DNA of 64,000 nt from Candidatus Aminicenantaceae bacterium (GCA_041862375.1 JBGVTE010000141.1:6465-70464), one strand, 5' to 3'. Counted from the first letter of the stretch, positions 20,818 to 26,327 are shown. The notes: generated by a model not told the origin, from the sequence alone. Translations and numbers: made by a program.

Positions 20818-22992
20818 TTATAGTTTTCTCAAACCTCCTACTAGAAAGAGGAAGCAGAAAGAATTGAGAATAAAGAGATATTTTACTAGAAGAGGAAGTC
20901 CAAAGAGAGGAATAATGAGAGTAGAAGCTATGAGTGCGCCTGAAAAGGAACCCAATAAATCCAAGCCGTAGCCCAATCCATAGTTTTTACGTTCTTCCAG
21001 AAAGAGGTTGTTTGAAACAACAAATAAGTCTCCTCCAAGAAAGCCAAGGACCAGCAGAAATAAAAATGAGGAAAATTCTGGCGGGGATAATTTTAATGAG
21101 AAATTCAGAAGGAGAAGGAGAAGGAGAAAACCAAACTGGATGAAAAGAATTTGGGAGAAATGATATTTTTTTCTTATTGTGCCTCGGAATGCCCCCAGTA
21201 GCAAGCCTGTCATAAAAGAAGTTAATAGAAGGGCAATCCTTCTGTAGAGGTAGCCAAACTGGGTTTGAAAAAAGATGATGATAATTATTTCAGCAACAAT
21301 AGTTGTAAAGCCCATAACAGCCAAGGGAACCAGGAAAAAGTTTGTCTTTTTTCCCCTCAGCCAGAGTAATAAAAGAAAAAGGATAAAGACGAGCAGAGGT
21401 AAGTCGAGAAGCCAAAAAGAGTTAATCTCAGAAAAGAAAGAAAGAACTCTTTTTTCTATTCCCTTAAATTGAGTGCTCCATAAGATTGAGGTATAAAAGT
21501 AGCTTATAGGGATTAAATCCAGGTTTATAATTCTCTTTCCTTTTGTAATTTTTTCTTTGAGGAGGTCTACTCTTAAGCGATTAAGACGAGAAAATAAAAG
21601 ATGGGGGCTGACAAAGGAGTTTTGGAGGTCTAGCTTTTCTATTTTTCTGTTTAATTCTTCAAAATCTATAGAGAGGAGGCGGTCTGAAGCAAGAAAAATG
21701 TTTGTATCACCAGGGACAATTTCGATTTTTGCAAAGATTTCTTTTAGGGTGAAATAGAGAGAGGAAAGAAAATTCTGCAACTCAAGACTGACATAGTTCT
21801 CAGCTGAGGGCACCCTAAACGAAACTAATCCTTTCTCTGTGAGTTTTTCTTTGGCCTTAAGGAAAAATTCTTTTGTATAAAATCTGTTTATCTGAGCTGT
21901 TGAAGGCTCAGGAAGGTTGAGGATGATAATGTCGTATTTTTTTTCAACTCTGTATAGAAAAGCTCTGCCATCCTCGAAGTAAATCTGAACTCTCCCGCTT
22001 TTTAGATACATCTTTTCTTCTTCAGGCAGAAGTTGAAGGGATAAACTGATTATTTCAGGGTCTAATTCTACGTAATCTACCTCAACCTGAGAGTATTTTA
22101 AAAGCTGTTTCAGGCTTCCCCCAACTCCTCCACCTATGAGCAGGACATTTTTTGCTTGGGGATTTTGAAGGAGAGCAAAATGAATAGATTCTTCTGAAGA
22201 AGCTAAATCAGGGTGAGAATATACGAGAAGACTGTTGTTGTAGAGAGAAATCTGCTCTTCAGTCTTTATACACTGAAGCTTTCCGTAGCGGCTGTCCTTG
22301 CTCTTCATTAGGTGAAAAGGTGTCCAATAGATCTTCTGGGTTGGTATATCGAGAAGTACAAAAGCAGAGAGTGCGACAAGAGAAAGAACAAATAAAAATC
22401 CTTCTTTCCTTCTTCTTAAAGTCAGAAAAGTTAATAGAGAAGAAAATCCTCCAACAATTGCAACGCCTTGCCAGTTTGAAAAAAAAGGAATTAGAAAGAA
22501 GTAAGCTGCGAGTCCTCCGAGTGATGCTCCGAGAGATTCCAAAAGATAGACTTGCATAAGGTTTCCACTTCTGAAAAAGACATTAAAAACAAAGAGGATT
22601 CCGAGAGGAGAACTTATGAAAAAAGATAAAATCATAGAGAAGACTATCGCTGTGGTGAGACCTGTCATTTCTCCGGGTAAGATTTTCAGGAAGAAACGTG
22701 AAAACCTGAGGCAAAGAAGTGATAAGGGAAAAGCAAGGATGACAAGATAATAGACTCGAGAAAGCATGGAGGGTCTGAATGAAAATTTCGAGGCAGAAAT
22801 ACTTCCTACGCCACCCCAAAGAAGCCATGAGGCTAGAAGAAGGCCATATGTGATTTCATTTCCGTAAAAATGAGCTGAGAATTCTCTCAAGAGAAAGATT
22901 TGAAAGGAAAGGGCTAAGAATCCCAGAAGGAAGGAGGGGAGGAGGTTTATCAACTCCAAATTCCGGGTATGGGTGTTCTGCAGAACCTGCAT
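20818..22992 (-). CDS. polytopic membrane protein with a central spermidine-synthase-like (SpeE-fold) domain; non-canonical active site
   Basis: Multiple hydrophobic segments at both ends. Central motifs 'VLLIGGGVGGS', 'VELDPEI' and 'YDIIILNLPEPS' match the SpeE scaffold, but the canonical Asp residues are replaced. Confidence 0.7.
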   Translation of the reverse strand: MQVLQNTHTRNLELINLLPSFLLGFLALSFQIFLLREFSAHFYGNEITYGLLLASWLLWGGVGSISASKFSFRPSMLSRVYYLVILAFPLSLLCLRFSRFFLKILPGEMTGLTTAIVFSMILSFFISSPLGILFVFNVFFRSGNLMQVYLLESLGASLGGLAAYFFLIPFFSNWQGVAIVGGFSSLLTFLTLRRRKEGFLFVLSLVALSAFVLLDIPTQKIYWTPFHLMKSKDSRYGKLQCIKTEEQISLYNNSLLVYSHPDLASSEESIHFALLQNPQAKNVLLIGGGVGGSLKQLLKYSQVEVDYVELDPEIISLSLQLLPEEEKMYLKSGRVQIYFEDGRAFLYRVEKKYDIIILNLPEPSTAQINRFYTKEFFLKAKEKLTEKGLVSFRVPSAENYVSLELQNFLSSLYFTLKEIFAKIEIVPGDTNIFLASDRLLSIDFEELNRKIEKLDLQNSFVSPHLLFSRLNRLRVDLLKEKITKGKRIINLDLIPISYFYTSILWSTQFKGIEKRVLSFFSEINSFWLLDLPLLVFILFLLLLWLRGKKTNFFLVPLAVMGFTTIVAEIIIIIFFQTQFGYLYRRIALLLTSFMTGLLLGAFRGTIRKKYHFSQILFIQFGFLLLLLLLNFSLKLSPPEFSSFLFLLVLGFLGGDLFVVSNNLFLEERKNYGLGYGLDLLGSFSGALIASTLIIPLFGLPLLVKYLFILNSFCFLFLVGGLRKL

Positions 22993-24068
22993 TTTCCTCC
23001 ACTGAGCTCGATTTTCATTATTTGATAACCAACCCGCTTGACAACTATGTTTTTGCAGCTAGGACAATAAGTGCTTTCTGCCTTATGGCCGGGTATATTT
23101 CCTATGTAGACGTAGTGAAGCCCTTCTTCGAGCGCCACTTTATGAGCCTTTTCCAACGTTGATACAGGAGTGGGTGGAAGATTTTTAACAAGATACATAG
23201 GGTGAAATCGAGAAAAGTGAACTGGAACATCAGGTCCGATCTCTTTCCTGAGCCAGCGGCACATCTTCCTGATTTCTTCTGGCCTATCGTTTAAGGTTGG
23301 AATCACGAGATAAACTATCTCAAGCCATGTATCGCTTCTGTTGACAATTTTAATTGCCTCTAGCACTGGCTCTAATTTTCCCTTCACATAGCTGTGGTAA
23401 AAATCCCCAGAGAAGGATTTTAAGTCAATTTTTATAGCATCTACTACCTTTATTAGATCTTGAAGAGGCTCAGGATTTATATGCCCACCGGTGATAACAA
23501 CATTTCTGATTCTTTTTCTGCGTGCCTCTACCGAAGTGTCAAACATGTATTCAAAGAAAATGACCGGTTCTGTATAAGTGTAGGCAATAGAAGGACATTT
23601 ATATTTTTGAGCATAATTAACAACAGATGAAGGAGGGAAATCATAATGTCTCACCTGTTCCGGTCTTACCTGGGATATCTCCCAATTCTGGCAAAACTTA
23701 CAGTTAACATTACAGCCTGCAGTGGCGATGGATAGCGCATTCGTTTTTGGAAGAAAGTGAAAAAAAGGTTTCTTTTCTATTGGATCAACATGGATGGCAC
23801 AGGCTTTTCCGTAGACTAAGGTATAGTATTTTCCTCCTATGTTTTCTCTCACTCCACAGTACCCTCTTTCCTTATCGCCAAGTTTGCAAAATCGAGGACA
23901 GAGGGTGCATTCTATTTCCCTGTCAGGATGTTTCTTGTAGTAGCGGGCTTCAACCTTGGAGAGGTTTGCATACTCTCCAAAAGCGAATGAATCCATAAAA
24001 TAGGGAGTAAGACTGGAACTAGCAATGAAACTTGCTCCTGCTGATTTAAGAAATTGACGTCTTTTCAT
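22950..24068 (-). CDS. AmmeMemoRadiSam-type radical SAM enzyme with a twin-arginine signal; start placed at MKRRQF
   Basis: 'KRRQFLKSAGASFIASSS' Tat-like leader, 'CNVNCKFCQNWE' CxxxCxxC motif, 'CGVRENIGGKYYTLVYGK', and a C-terminal Cys pair. The track ORF starts 10 codons earlier, at 24098. Confidence 0.75.
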   Translation of the reverse strand: MKRRQFLKSAGASFIASSSLTPYFMDSFAFGEYANLSKVEARYYKKHPDREIECTLCPRFCKLGDKERGYCGVRENIGGKYYTLVYGKACAIHVDPIEKKPFFHFLPKTNALSIATAGCNVNCKFCQNWEISQVRPEQVRHYDFPPSSVVNYAQKYKCPSIAYTYTEPVIFFEYMFDTSVEARRKRIRNVVITGGHINPEPLQDLIKVVDAIKIDLKSFSGDFYHSYVKGKLEPVLEAIKIVNRSDTWLEIVYLVIPTLNDRPEEIRKMCRWLRKEIGPDVPVHFSRFHPMYLVKNLPPTPVSTLEKAHKVALEEGLHYVYIGNIPGHKAESTYCPSCKNIVVKRVGYQIMKIELSGGKCRFCRTPIPGIWS

Positions 24069-24163
24069 CTTCTTGATAAAGCCGGACTCGATAACCAAAA
24101 AAAAGGATTTTTTATGGTATTTTTATGTAAAAAAATTTAATTTTTCTCTTTTAATTCATTATA

Positions 24164-25060
24164 TCATACTTCTTCTTCAATGATTTGAATAAATTTGGAT
24201 TGTGCTCTTCCTAAGCCCATTTTTTCAGCAGTGATGAAATATTGTGGTTCTCTATTTTCTTCTTTTAATGAGGGAAGCCCTTTTTCAGCTCGCAATTTTT
24301 CGATAATTTGCCAGCCTACAAAATCCGCTGCCACAGGGTCGGAGCTGAATATTAAGGCTTCATATCTTTTCGCCCATGGGCTGTGAAAAGATGGCCCACG
24401 ATGATATTGAACAATAAGGCAATCCAGGATAGAAAGTTTATGCTTTCTCTTAATGAATTTGGAGTCGAAGAGTTCAGGAATAAAAGGATTGCAGTTATCA
24501 TCATGATATTTATTTGGATTATGAATTGTGCCAAAGTAGTTTTTCATTCCCGCTGTGACACCTGCGAGTCCATGGTCTTTCAATACAGCAAAACTGATAG
24601 AAGCTGTTATAAGTTCTGATTGAATGGAGGAAAAAATACTGCCAATATTAAGGTGAGAAATAAGGCCAGAATTATATCCTGCACCATCAGTGTCTGTTCC
24701 GAAGATTTTAACTCCAGCTCCACTGAGGTTGAGGCGGTAACCAGCCTCCCTCAATTCTCGGTTTGTCCTGTCCCAAATAATTATGTTTTTTCCTTGGATA
24801 CCGTTTTCTGAGAGTATATTGGATAAACAGATTGTTGCCTCAGGGCGGGAAGTTAATTTTCTTCCGGCAATTGTATTGATTTTTATTCCAATTCTCTCTC
24901 TTGGCCTGAAGAAAACACTAACGCTTTCCCTCAGGCTTGATTGTTCTGTTAATATTTGAAATCCTCGAGTGTACATTTGAATCAGTTTTTTTTGATCGAT
25001 CATACTGCCTGAAGAAAGAACTCCTCTTCCTCTTACTATGGCGACTTTGGATAACTTCAT
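24164..25060 (-). CDS. DUF362-like protein
   Basis: Length and overall pattern ('VAIVRG', 'IGIKINT', 'GTIHNPNKYH') resemble DUF362. No database check was done. Confidence 0.45.
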   Translation of the reverse strand: MKLSKVAIVRGRGVLSSGSMIDQKKLIQMYTRGFQILTEQSSLRESVSVFFRPRERIGIKINTIAGRKLTSRPEATICLSNILSENGIQGKNIIIWDRTNRELREAGYRLNLSGAGVKIFGTDTDGAGYNSGLISHLNIGSIFSSIQSELITASISFAVLKDHGLAGVTAGMKNYFGTIHNPNKYHDDNCNPFIPELFDSKFIKRKHKLSILDCLIVQYHRGPSFHSPWAKRYEALIFSSDPVAADFVGWQIIEKLRAEKGLPSLKEENREPQYFITAEKMGLGRAQSKFIQIIEEEV

Positions 25061-25313: not shown

Positions 25314-25424
25314 TGAACCCTGCTGGAATTTGCTAAAGCTGTGTCCACTTGACTAACTTCGAATTCACAAGAAGCAATTTTTTCCAGCTTGAATATATTA
25401 TTAAGAGTTAAAGGAGCTTTAGTT

Positions 25425-26327
25425 GTGAAAAAGATTGTTGTACTTTCATTTTCCATCATTTTTTTTCTTTTCGTTCTAAAAGTAGAAGGAACCTCTCTAG
25501 AAAAAGGTGACATTTCTTATCTTAAGGCTCTTTTGCCCGAGGTTCAGTCTTGGAAGCTTTCAGAAGAGCCGCAGGACTATTCTCCTGAAATCCTTTTTGA
25601 GTATATAGATGGAGCTGCTGAAATATATTTATCTTATAATTTTGAGAAGTTAATTGTTGCTCAGTACCAAAAGGTAGATTCTGCTGCTTCCTTGACTATA
25701 GAAATTTACGATATGGGAAACGAAAAAAATTCTTTTGGCATCTACAGTGTAGAAAGATTTCCGGAGAGCAACTATCTTACTTTAGGGAATGGAGGCTATA
25801 TGGAAGAGGGTGCCTTGAATTTCATTGTAGGCACATACTATGTAAAACTTCTTTGTTTTGAGTGTGAAGATTATTCTGAAGACTCATTAAAATTGTTTTC
25901 TCAAAATATTATAAAAAATGTAAAAGATAAAAAGGATCTCCCTCCTCTTTTAGAGTTCTTTCCCGAGGAAGGGCTGGTTGAGTACAGCTCTAAGTTTATC
26001 TTGCGTAATTTTTTGGGCCAAAACTTTTTCCACAATGGCTACATTGCTTCCTATAGACTTGAAGACCTTGAGTTTGATTGTTTCTTTATTGAAGGGAAGA
26101 ATGAGAAGGAAGCAGAGAAGATGCTAAGCAAGTATTTTGAGTATTATGCTCAGAATAACAAACATGTGCAAAAAATTCCCTTGGGCTATCATATAAAGAA
26201 TAGCTATTACAAAAATGTTTATGTGGCTCAGGTTAAGAACTATATTTGCGGTGTGTTCAAGATTAAAGATGGCAGCGAGAGCGTGGGTAAGAGATACCTT
26301 AAGTTTTTAATCGACCAGTTGCGGTGA
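25425..26327 (+). CDS. secreted hypothetical protein; GTG start after AAAGGAG
   Basis: Signal peptide 'VKKIVVLSFSIIFFLFVLKVEG'. AAAGGAG lies 8 nt upstream of GTG 25425. The track ORF starts at TTG 25389. Confidence 0.55.
   Translation: MKKIVVLSFSIIFFLFVLKVEGTSLEKGDISYLKALLPEVQSWKLSEEPQDYSPEILFEYIDGAAEIYLSYNFEKLIVAQYQKVDSAASLTIEIYDMGNEKNSFGIYSVERFPESNYLTLGNGGYMEEGALNFIVGTYYVKLLCFECEDYSEDSLKLFSQNIIKNVKDKKDLPPLLEFFPEEGLVEYSSKFILRNFLGQNFFHNGYIASYRLEDLEFDCFFIEGKNEKEAEKMLSKYFEYYAQNNKHVQKIPLGYHIKNSYYKNVYVAQVKNYICGVFKIKDGSESVGKRYLKFLIDQLR

What the first reader, a model, noticed from the sequence alone, without database searches (positions are those of the whole stretch)
20818..25060. DUF362 / Tat-signal radical SAM / membrane SpeE-like cluster: possible envelope modification system
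Three co-directional genes lie immediately upstream of the redox operon. The first is a DUF362-like protein. The second, 95 nt downstream, is an AmmeMemoRadiSam-type radical SAM enzyme. Its 3' end overlaps by 43 nt the start of a 724-aa polytopic protein with a SpeE-fold domain. The usual partners of this radical SAM family, AMMECR1 and Memo, are absent from the neighbourhood. A cofactor-loaded exported radical SAM enzyme next to a membrane-embedded SAM- or dcSAM-binding domain suggests an uncharacterised modification of a periplasmic or membrane substrate.
Basis: partly seen in the sequence, partly recalled or inferred. Interest (0 to 1): 0.65.

Follow-up and report, generated by a model that had tools for sequence, protein, structure and literature searches.

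The report
Exported radical-SAM system with membrane partner
These three genes are the local part of a widely conserved but unstudied four-protein system whose iron-sulfur radical-SAM enzyme and its partners all appear to work outside the cytoplasm, where this chemistry and its cofactor SAM are not known to occur.

Summary
On the minus strand lie a DUF362 protein (25060..24164), a TIGR04337 radical SAM enzyme with a canonical twin-arginine leader (24068..22950), and a 724-aa membrane protein with a SpeE-like domain (22992..20818).

The genes are functionally linked. Leader-bearing relatives of the enzyme occur in many phyla and sit beside a homologue of the membrane protein. The usual operon there is a signal-peptide Memo-AMMECR1 fusion, the membrane protein and the Tat enzyme.

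In this Aminicenantes genome that fusion is encoded elsewhere (contig C126), so Memo and AMMECR1 are unlinked, not absent. Among 61 genomes of the class, 47 carry the exported-type enzyme. The membrane protein is in 44 of those; at E<=1e-60 it is in none of the other 14, which were not re-searched more loosely.

DUF362 has a LarA-like fold and is a clade-specific fourth partner. It usually has its own Tat leader, and leader loss is reciprocal between it and the enzyme, which fits joint export.

The membrane protein has two homologous six-helix repeats. By the positive-inside rule its SpeE-like domain faces outwards. That domain keeps adenosyl-binding residues but lacks the catalytic and dcSAM-selecting aspartates.

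Substrate and chemistry remain unknown. No description was found in the literature that could be searched.

The parts
24164..25060 (-). DUF362-family protein, 298 aa, with no signal peptide. It has a LarA-like fold and a conserved KDH...KNYFGxIHNPNKYH motif. It is a clade-specific partner of the radical SAM enzyme.
   Evidence: PF04015 scores 58.8 bits. The AF2 model has pLDDT 92.6. Nine of the ten significant PDB fold matches are annotated LarA-like nickel-pincer enzymes (the tenth, 4nar, is an unannotated T. maritima protein), with TM about 0.5. It lies next to the enzyme in about 39 of 47 class genomes. Orthologues outside Aminicenantes carry Tat leaders.
22950..24068 (-). AmmeMemoRadiSam-type radical SAM enzyme, 372 aa from the ATG (an alternative TTG start lies at 24098). 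It belongs to the exported (Tat) paralogue group.
   Evidence: TIGR04337 scores 383.7 bits against a cut-off of 220. All Cys motifs are shared with the two leaderless paralogues on C67 and C109. The tree separates exported types from those paralogues with 99/98 support.
23982..24068 (-). Twin-arginine leader, residues 1-29: MKRRQFLKSAGASFIASSSLTPYFMDSFA, with a predicted cleavage after SFA.
   Evidence: The RRxF[LF]K motif, a variable h-region and an xYA|F site are conserved in Aminicenantes orthologues. They are also conserved in relatives of 36-55% identity. 63 of 82 loci carry an RR/KR leader. The genome has TatC and two TatA genes.
23691..23714 (-). Radical SAM cluster motif CNVNCKFC (C119, C123, C126 in the 372-aa numbering).
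   Evidence: Read directly from the sequence. These columns are invariant in the alignment of Tat-type relatives.
22348..22992 (-). Membrane protein, residues 1-215. This is the first six-helix repeat plus TM7, which carries the chain to the outer face. A GGAGG RBS lies at 22996-23000, and the start overlaps the enzyme's 3' end by 43 nt.
   Evidence: The AF2 model has pTM 0.84 and seven helices here. The internal repeat scores 98.6% probability in hhalign. The RBS is seen.
21418..22347 (-). SpeE-like Rossmann domain, residues 216-525, predicted to face the periplasm. It reads GGGVGG (no dcSAM-selecting Asp), keeps E309 and D341, and has NLPEP in place of DxxDP.
   Evidence: PF01564 matches at E=1.9e-25. 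PDB fold matches to aminopropyltransferases have TMt 0.7-0.78.
20818..21417 (-). Membrane protein, residues 526-724. TM8 returns the chain inward and is followed by the second six-helix repeat.
   Evidence: Seven helices in the AF2 model. This half is homologous to the N-terminal bundle at E=1e-15. The C-terminus is predicted inside.

Best explanation
The three genes are the linked part of a four-component, extracytoplasmic version of the AmmeMemoRadiSam system.

**Enzyme.** The radical SAM enzyme folds and receives its Fe-S clusters in the cytoplasm. The Tat pathway then exports it.

**DUF362.** The DUF362 protein has a LarA-like fold and no leader here. It most likely binds the enzyme and is exported with it as a passenger. 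This is inferred from the pattern of leaders in relatives.

**Memo-AMMECR1.** The Memo-AMMECR1 fusion is encoded on contig C126 and reaches the same compartment through its Sec signal peptide.

**Membrane protein.** The 724-aa protein has a transporter-like 6+6-helix core. Two extra helices (TM7 and TM8) hold a SpeE-derived domain over the outer face. That domain binds an adenosyl ligand. It is not an aminopropyltransferase, because the catalytic base and the dcSAM-selecting Asp are replaced.

**Proposed working.** The most likely role of the membrane protein is to serve the exported enzyme. It may pass SAM, or a substrate, across the membrane and present it, or it may remove adenosyl by-products. 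The enzyme, Memo-AMMECR1 and DUF362 would then modify a periplasmic or membrane-bound molecule that is still unknown.

**Shown:**
- domain identities
- conservation of the leaders
- gene linkage across phyla
- genome-wide co-occurrence
- the internal repeat
- the residue substitutions

**Inferred:**
- actual export
- outward topology
- joint export of DUF362
- SAM supply
- the substrate
For: 1. **Leader conservation.** Orthologues in Aminicenantes and relatives of 36-55% identity all carry RRxF[LF] leaders with variable h-regions. 63 of 82 loci from more than 15 phyla carry such a leader. The two leaderless paralogues in this genome differ only by the 37-aa leader.
2. **Tat machinery.** TatC and two TatA genes are present in the genome. 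TatC lies beside the cassette in two distant loci.
3. **Linkage to the membrane protein.** Among non-Aminicenantes loci with an RR leader and at least 3 kb on both sides, 20 of 30 have the membrane protein within 5 kb. Where it is not adjacent, 10-11 of 12 genomes encode a full-length homologue elsewhere, often beside Memo-AMMECR1.
4. **Class sample of 61 genomes.** The exported-type enzyme is in 47. The membrane protein is in 44 of those. At E<=1e-60 it is in none of the other 14.
5. **Memo-AMMECR1 fusion.** The recurrent operon is fusion, membrane protein, enzyme. Fusion and enzyme signals co-vary: about 20 loci have both, 5 have neither and 1 is discordant. This genome's fusion on C126 has the leader MKRKIMLLSLIFLFSVASSA. 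G061 has all four genes in a row.
6. **DUF362.** It has its own Tat leader outside Aminicenantales. It has none here, where the enzyme has one. In G061 it has one and the enzyme has none.
7. **Topology.** Across 38 homologues, mean K+R sums to 17.8 in the even-numbered loops and 2.8 in the short odd-numbered loops. The SpeE-like domain occupies an odd-numbered loop. The two helix bundles are homologous.
8. **SpeE-like residues.** The dcSAM-selecting Asp is absent from every homologue. E309 is kept in 33 of 38 and D341 in 37 of 38. The catalytic Asp is Asn in 26 of 38.
9. **Reductant-related neighbours.** Other lineages have DsbD_2 (6 loci) and NosR-like FMN_bind/Fer4_5 proteins (3 loci) beside the cassette.
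Against: - No experiment shows export, topology or activity for any member.
- SAM and a low-potential reductant are not known to exist in the periplasm.
- The positive-inside rule is only a statistical predictor.
- SignalP and TatP could not be run.
- The helix bundles match no Pfam MFS model, so 'transporter' rests on architecture and on the NCBIfam name NF037959 (45.7 bits against a cut-off of 40).
- Some lineages (Omnitrophota, Elusimicrobia) have hydrophobic leaders without RR. These are hard to reconcile with export of a folded Fe-S enzyme.
- Three genomes with the exported-type enzyme lack a detectable membrane protein (G038, G070, G086).
- A clade in Bacteroidota has lost the signals on both the enzyme and the fusion.
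- The 14 genomes without the enzyme were searched for the membrane protein only at E<=1e-60.
- The genomes in the co-occurrence count are not phylogenetically independent.
Confidence: 0.7

Rival explanations
1. The compartment is the same, but no SAM is exported. The enzyme is the closest relative of pyruvate formate-lyase activase. It would leave the cytoplasm already loaded with SAM on its cluster. It would then act once as an activase that installs a radical or a modification on a partner (DUF362 or Memo-AMMECR1), or it would use SAM catalytically. The membrane protein would do something else, such as present a lipid or amine substrate, or bind the 5'-deoxyadenosine or MTA product.
For: Tat exports folded, cofactor-loaded proteins (established knowledge). 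The nearest characterised relatives are glycyl-radical activases. DUF362 is tightly coupled to the enzyme and probably travels with it. The SpeE-like domain lacks catalytic residues.
Against: It does not explain why an adenosyl-binding fold is kept on the outer face of a transporter-like protein. That protein co-occurs with the enzyme in 44 of 47 genomes. No glycyl-radical motif was sought or found in the partners. A reductant is still needed outside.
Confidence: 0.2
2. The system is cytoplasmic or faces the cytoplasm. The RR leader would be a vestigial or chaperone-binding motif, or an uncleaved anchor that does not lead to translocation. The SpeE-like domain would face inwards, where SAM and reduced ferredoxin are available.
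For: All characterised radical SAM enzymes are cytoplasmic. Vestigial Tat motifs exist (NarG; from my own knowledge). A nested Bacteroidota clade works without any signals. Some leaders lack RR.
Against: The leader keeps the full consensus together with an h-region and a cleavage-type site across phyla. Partner proteins carry independent Sec, lipoprotein or Tat signals that co-vary with it. The loop-charge bias of 17.8 against 2.8 puts the domain outside. TatC, DsbD_2 and NosR-like genes lie beside the cassette in other lineages.
Confidence: 0.08
3. The 724-aa protein is a genuine membrane-bound polyamine aminopropyltransferase, and its adjacency to the radical SAM enzyme has no functional meaning.
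For: PF01564 and several SpeE NCBIfam models match. The fold matches solved aminopropyltransferases.
Against: All SpeE equivalog cut-offs are missed by a wide margin (117.6 against 472; 87.1 against 249.6). The catalytic Asp is Asn and the dcSAM-selecting Asp is Val. Linkage and co-occurrence with the enzyme hold across phyla.
Confidence: 0.03

Closest known systems
AmmeMemoRadiSam system (NCBIfam TIGR04335 AMMECR1-like, TIGR04336 Memo-like, TIGR04337 radical SAM). Its function is unknown. RNA-base modification was proposed in PMC2034487. Base or isoprenoid modification was proposed by Burroughs et al. 2019 (J Biol Chem); I cite that paper from memory of its abstract, because the text was not held.
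   Same: The enzyme scores well above the TIGR04337 cut-off. Memo and AMMECR1 domains are the conserved partners, fused here as in many prokaryotes.
   Different: All components carry export signals. A 14-helix protein with an outward SpeE-like domain is an added obligate-looking partner. In this clade a DUF362 protein is a further partner. In this genome the Memo-AMMECR1 gene is unlinked. An exported location argues against RNA as the substrate of this branch.
Tat-exported cofactor enzymes with passenger subunits (for example hydrogenase HybO/HybC and DmsA/DmsB)
   Same: A canonical RR leader sits on an Fe-S protein. A tightly linked partner lacks a leader in some lineages and has one in others.
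   Different: No radical SAM enzyme is known as a Tat substrate. Joint export is inferred here only from the pattern of leaders.
Spermidine synthase (SpeE) and 'fused MFS/spermidine synthase' proteins (NF037959; PRK03612-type membrane SpeE homologues)
   Same: It shares the Rossmann fold with the N-terminal beta-hairpin domain. It keeps the ribose- and adenine-binding acidic residues. Transmembrane helices are fused to it.
   Different: The domain is inserted between two homologous six-helix repeats and predicted to be periplasmic. The catalytic Asp is Asn, and the GGG(D/E)G acidic residue is hydrophobic. All SpeE equivalog scores fall far below their cut-offs.
LarA / DUF2088 nickel-pincer-nucleotide racemases (Pfam clan CL0471)
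   Same: DUF362 shares the clan (PMC11770544). Nine of its ten significant PDB fold matches are annotated LarA-like enzymes; the tenth, 4nar, is an unannotated T. maritima protein.
   Different: There is no sequence-level match to any solved structure. It is shorter (298 aa against about 420). Use of the cofactor was not tested. The genome has a true LarA and LarC elsewhere.

Membership tests
TIGR04337 AmmeMemoRadiSam radical SAM enzyme | HMM score above the curated cut-off | tested here: met
   383.7 bits against a cut-off of 220, covering model positions 1-333 of 349.
TIGR04337 AmmeMemoRadiSam radical SAM enzyme | CX3CX2C radical SAM motif and the family's extra N- and C-terminal Cys motifs | tested here: met
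   C119/C123/C126, C54/C57/C61/C71 and the C-terminal CxxC...CxxC are present. They are shared with the two paralogues and invariant in relatives.
TIGR04337 AmmeMemoRadiSam radical SAM enzyme | Occurs with AMMECR1 and Memo homologues | tested here: met
   They are not adjacent here. The genome encodes a Memo-AMMECR1 fusion with a signal peptide on C126. The fusion is adjacent to the enzyme in 29 of 82 related loci and in family f8 of the same class.
Tat (twin-arginine) substrates | N-terminal S/T-R-R-x-F-L-K motif, a moderately hydrophobic h-region and a c-region with small residues at -3 and -1 | tested here: met
   The leader is MKRRQFLK-SAGASFIASSSL-TPYFMDSFA|F. The motif is conserved across orthologues and phyla. 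Only 45 of 2923 ORFs of at least 120 aa in the genome fit a similar pattern.
Tat (twin-arginine) substrates | The organism encodes TatA and TatC | tested here: met
   TatC lies at C57:9761-10534. TatA-like genes lie at C57:9541-9786 and C84:25617-25814.
Tat (twin-arginine) substrates | Tat-dependent translocation shown experimentally | not testable with these tools
   This needs reporter or fractionation assays.
Spermidine synthase / aminopropyltransferase (SpeE, PF01564, TIGR00417) | SpeE fold | tested here: met
   PF01564 scores 89.9 bits. Foldseek matches 1uir and 6bq2 with TMt 0.71-0.78.
Spermidine synthase / aminopropyltransferase (SpeE, PF01564, TIGR00417) | Acidic residue in GGG(D/E)G that selects dcSAM over SAM | tested here: not met
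   The motif reads GGGVGG. Across 38 homologues the position is A, I, V, L or S and never D or E.
Spermidine synthase / aminopropyltransferase (SpeE, PF01564, TIGR00417) | Catalytic Asp in the D-x-x-D-P loop | tested here: not met
   NLPEP aligns with IDLTDP of 1uir. The position is Asn in 26 of 38 homologues and Asp in 4 of 38.
Spermidine synthase / aminopropyltransferase (SpeE, PF01564, TIGR00417) | Equivalog HMM cut-offs | tested here: not met
   TIGR00417 scores 87.1 against 249.6. PRK03612 scores 117.6 against 472. PRK00811 scores 103.2 against 260.
Fused MFS/spermidine synthase (NF037959) | HMM score above the cut-off | tested here: met
   45.7 bits against a cut-off of 40, over residues 120-425.
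Major facilitator superfamily | Two homologous six-helix halves and a match to MFS models | tested here: inconclusive
   The 6+6 internal repeat is shown (hhalign 98.6%, E=1e-15). Neither half matches any Pfam MFS model even at E<=10. No fold search of the helix bundles alone was possible.
DUF362 (PF04015) | HMM score above the gathering cut-off | tested here: met
   58.8 bits against a cut-off of 24, covering the full model 1-199 of 200.
LarA superfamily (nickel-pincer nucleotide enzymes) | Lar_N/DUF2088 sequence membership and cofactor-binding Lys and His residues | tested here: inconclusive
   Only fold-level similarity was found, with no sequence match. Conserved K173, H163, H180 and H186 exist but could not be mapped onto LarA.

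The most novel reading that the evidence does not exclude
This is a self-contained radical SAM machine that turns over in the periplasm. The Tat pathway exports a DUF362-enzyme complex on one leader. The dedicated 6+6-helix membrane protein exports SAM and hands it over through its outward SpeE-derived domain, or recycles the adenosyl product. Together with the exported Memo-AMMECR1 protein, the machine modifies an envelope lipid or another extracytoplasmic molecule. If true, these would be the first radical SAM enzymes shown to act outside the cytoplasm, and the membrane protein the first dedicated bacterial SAM exporter.
Probability: 0.3. Interest if true: 0.9.

Novelty: new variant of a known kind. 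Interest (0 to 1): 0.72.

Why it matters
Radical SAM chemistry is assumed to be confined to the cytoplasm. It needs SAM, oxygen-sensitive Fe-S clusters and a very low-potential reductant.

A widely distributed clade of these enzymes carries conserved export signals. Its partners switch their signals in concert with it. A dedicated membrane protein displays an adenosyl-binding fold on the outer face. Together these features challenge the assumption about location.

The finding also gives a new handle on the function of the Memo and AMMECR1 domains, which has long been unknown. Both are conserved up to humans and are linked to disease. An exported version cannot act on RNA, which narrows the possible substrates for this branch.

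The Aminicenantes arrangement adds DUF362 as a further partner. DUF362 is a large family of unknown function with a LarA-like fold.

A cultured species, Mangrovibacterium marinum DSM 28823 (L074), carries the classical cassette and could be used for genetics.

Tried and rejected
- **Expression.** A search for public runs found only two DNA sediment metagenomes and no RNA. Co-transcription could not be tested.
- **Signals around the genes.** The promoter and terminator scan gave nothing above shuffled expectation.
- **DUF362 against PDB.** Sequence searches with the single protein and with the profile found nothing. Residues could not be mapped onto LarA.
- **Nickel-pincer cofactor idea.** LarC is present, but so is a true LarA homologue. 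The presence of LarC therefore says nothing about DUF362.
- **DUF362 as a universal component.** Rejected. In 16 genomes with the classical cassette only weak generic DUF362 hits occur (88 bits or less), and 4 genomes have none.
- **MFS membership.** Pfam on the two helix bundles alone gave no MFS match.
- **Literature.**
  - 'AmmeMemoRadiSam' appears only in passing in 6 papers.
  - No paper holds phrases such as 'periplasmic radical SAM' or 'exported radical SAM'.
  - Burroughs et al. 2019 is not held.
- **Link to the downstream redox operon.** Not pursued as functional. HdrC and HdrB follow the cassette only in Aminicenantes and in one Desulfobacterales locus. A 141-nt gap with promoter-like sequence separates them.
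- **C126 neighbourhood.** The genes around the Memo-AMMECR1 fusion are housekeeping and LPS-core genes by N-terminal inspection only, and no further system genes were seen.
- **Failed call.** One alignment call used wrong references and gave nothing.

Full report
**1. The observation**

Three co-directional ORFs lie on the minus strand exactly as described.
- DUF362 runs from 25060 to 24164 (298 aa). PF04015 scores 58.8 bits against a cut-off of 24.
- The radical SAM enzyme runs from 24068 to 22950 (372 aa from the ATG that the public gene call uses; an upstream TTG lies at 24098). TIGR04337 scores 383.7 bits against a cut-off of 220.
- The polytopic protein runs from 22992 to 20818 (724 aa). 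PF01564 matches residues 268-433.

The 95-nt gap and the 43-nt overlap are correct. A GGAGG lies 5 nt before the start of the third gene. The host is an Aminicenantes bacterium (names). The window is part of contig C141 of a 3.3-Mb genome that is 93% complete.

**2. The Tat leader is real and old**

The enzyme begins MKRRQFLKSAGASFIASSSLTPYFMDSFA|FG.
- Orthologues at 70-87% identity keep RRxF[LF]K, a variable h-region and an xYA|F site. This is the pattern expected of a signal peptide under functional constraint only.
- A full-library search returned many relatives at 36-55% identity and about 375-395 aa. They have the same kind of leader: SRRDFIK, RRRFLK, TRREFLQ, NRRQFLG and others.
- The genome has two more TIGR04337 paralogues, on C67 and C109. 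They share every Cys motif but lack the 37-residue leader.
- The genome encodes TatC and two TatA-like proteins.
- Only 45 of 2923 ORFs of at least 120 aa fit a comparable RR pattern.

**3. The enzyme and the membrane protein are a conserved pair**

A scan of one genome per species returned 80 loci from Verrucomicrobiota, Planctomycetota, Bacteroidota, Ignavibacteriota, Thermodesulfobacteriota, Omnitrophota, Elusimicrobiota, Zixibacteria, Calditrichota, Poribacteria, Chloroflexota, Bacillota-labelled bins and an Aenigmatarchaeota bin.

I called ORFs in these 80 loci plus two from the look-up of encoding contigs (L011, L013) and clustered the neighbours.
- 63 of the 82 enzymes have an RR or KR leader.
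- A homologue of the 724-aa protein is the commonest neighbour, in 45-46 loci.
- Among non-Aminicenantes loci with an RR leader and at least 3 kb on both sides, 20 of 30 have it within 5 kb.
- In 12 genomes where it is not adjacent, 10-11 encode a full-length homologue elsewhere.
- Three of those unlinked copies lie next to a Memo-AMMECR1 gene, and one belongs to a second complete cassette.

**4. Memo and AMMECR1 are unlinked here, not absent**

The second commonest neighbour (29 loci) is a fusion of about 505 aa containing Memo and AMMECR1. The typical operon is fusion, membrane protein, enzyme.

Where the enzyme has a leader, the fusion has a Sec or lipoprotein signal. Where the enzyme has none (a nested Bacteroidota clade), the fusion has none either. 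After hand correction of two crude calls the counts are about 20 loci with both signals, 5 with neither and 1 discordant.

This genome encodes such a fusion on C126:140393-141829. It carries the leader MKRKIMLLSLIFLFSVASSA. It also encodes a separate stand-alone AMMECR1 (C84) and Memo (C40), neither checked for a leader here, which presumably serve the two cytoplasmic paralogues.

**5. Co-occurrence within the class**

I searched an even sample of 61 genomes of the class.
- The exported-type enzyme (at least 380 bits; the paralogues score 354 or less) is in 47 genomes.
- A full-length homologue of the membrane protein is in 44 of these. At E<=1e-60 it is in none of the other 14. The 14 were not re-searched at the looser threshold, and the genomes are not independent.
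- The DUF362 subfamily lies directly upstream of the enzyme in about 39 genomes.
- Nearly all genomes with the enzyme also have an AMMECR1 domain in a 475-600-aa frame, which is the fusion.
- In family f8 the fusion sits directly upstream of DUF362 and the enzyme.
- In G061 all four genes are contiguous: membrane protein, fusion, DUF362, enzyme.

**6. DUF362**

The tree places the window's enzyme in an Aminicenantes clade (100/99 support). Its sister is a DUF362-linked clade of Calditrichota and Eisenbacteria (98/92). All exported types separate from this genome's cytoplasmic paralogues (99/98).

Genomes with the classical cassette have only weak generic DUF362 hits or none. DUF362 is therefore a clade-specific partner.

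Outside Aminicenantales the linked DUF362 carries its own Tat leader. Here, and in family f11, only the enzyme has one. In G061 only DUF362 has one, and the enzyme starts directly at MEAKYYKK. This reciprocal pattern is what joint export of a complex on one leader would produce. That step is an inference.

The AF2 model (pLDDT 92.6) has ten significant PDB matches, nine of them annotated LarA-like nickel-pincer enzymes (the tenth, 4nar, is an unannotated T. maritima protein), with TM about 0.5. This agrees with the shared Pfam clan (PMC11770544). No sequence-level PDB match exists. The genome has both LarC and a true LarA, so use of the cofactor by DUF362 remains open.

**7. The 724-aa protein**

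AF2 (pTM 0.84) gives seven helices, a SpeE-like domain, then seven more helices. The N- and C-terminal bundles are homologous: TM1-6 aligns with TM9-14 at 98.6% probability and E=1e-15. The architecture is therefore 6+6 helices, with TM7, the domain and TM8 inserted in the central loop.

Across 38 diverse homologues, mean K+R per loop sums to 17.8 on one side and 2.8 on the other. The SpeE-like domain lies on the K+R-poor side. The prediction is N-terminus in, C-terminus in and the domain out.

The domain matches solved aminopropyltransferases. However:
- GGG(D/E)G reads GGGVGG, and the position is never acidic in the family.
- The catalytic Asp is Asn in 26 of 38 homologues.
- The ribose-binding Glu (33 of 38) and the adenine-binding Asp (37 of 38) are kept.
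- All SpeE equivalog cut-offs are missed. Only NF037959, 'fused MFS/spermidine synthase', passes.
- Pfam finds no MFS match in the helix bundles.

**8. Supporting context elsewhere**

TatC lies beside the cassette in two loci. DsbD_2 thiol-electron transporters lie beside it in six loci. NosR-like FMN_bind/Fer4_5 membrane proteins lie beside it in three loci. These fit a need for export and for reducing power outside the cytoplasm.

**9. Interpretation**

The best reading is an extracytoplasmic, four-component form of the AmmeMemoRadiSam system, of which this window holds three genes. What it modifies is unknown. The role of the membrane protein (SAM or substrate delivery, or product removal) is a hypothesis.

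The main rivals are a pre-loaded, single-shot activase without SAM export, and a cytoplasm-facing system with a non-functional leader. The second is disfavoured by the concerted signals and by the loop-charge bias.

**10. Prior knowledge**

The canonical cytoplasmic trio is known but uncharacterised (PMC2034487; cited as the 'Memo-Ammecr1 system' in PMC7159879). Searches of about 8.4 million papers found no mention of exported or periplasmic radical SAM enzymes.

Earlier AI notes from this scan reach the same 'exported module with membrane partner' reading in other genomes. I read them only after my own analysis and they are not independent evidence. None of the summaries shown mentions DUF362 or the split arrangement seen here.

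Noticed in passing
window 25389-26327 (+): A DUF6599 protein (PF20244, E=1.6e-45) with an N-terminal hydrophobic segment is transcribed divergently from the DUF362 gene. The same neighbour recurs in 7 Aminicenantes-type loci (L011, L013, L030, L042-L044, L066).
   Followed up: partly
own genome: C109:77751-78623, C11:41976-42878, C130:19500-20501, C126:104609-105535, C8:6218-7105: Several further proteins of about 290-330 aa have canonical Tat leaders. Their N-termini resemble Tat-type DUF362 proteins. The family may therefore be commonly exported in this organism.
   Followed up: no
L020, L040, L062, L071, L078 (Bacteroidota): A clade of leaderless enzymes is paired with leaderless, convergently oriented Memo-AMMECR1 fusions. 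It is nested inside the exported clade (100/94 support). This suggests a secondary return of the whole system to the cytoplasm.
   Followed up: partly
L018, L023, L029, L041, L072 (Omnitrophota); L032 (Elusimicrobia); L021, L064: In these phyla the enzyme has a hydrophobic or lipobox-type leader without a clear RR. It is followed by Memo-AMMECR1 and a DsbD_2 membrane protein, or preceded by a NosR-like FMN_bind/Fer4_5 protein. How an Fe-S enzyme would be exported without Tat is unexplained.
   Followed up: partly
G032:C32:14024-16156 and G044:C27:364-2499 (family f9 of the class); G038: In family f9 the homologue of the membrane protein carries an in-frame TAA in two genomes and is undetectable in a third. 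DUF362 and the enzyme remain intact. This may be decay of the membrane partner in that lineage.
   Followed up: no
L025 (bin labelled Aenigmatarchaeota) and L054: TatC is encoded directly beside the enzyme and membrane-protein pair. One carrier is labelled as a DPANN archaeon with a genome of about 0.6 Mb.
   Followed up: no
(P0245, P0247, P0249, P0263 and others; G080, G086, G058): Many relatives of the enzyme are 590-1150 aa long. Some class genomes show open frames that run from Memo-AMMECR1 into the enzyme. This suggests triple fusions, whose export signals were not examined.
   Followed up: no
own genome C126:138296-141829 (-): The exported Memo-AMMECR1 fusion lies upstream of genes that look like an FmdB zinc ribbon, an LPS heptosyltransferase, GmhB and SpoT/RelA. 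These names rest on N-terminal sequence only. A link to the envelope is possible but untested.
   Followed up: no
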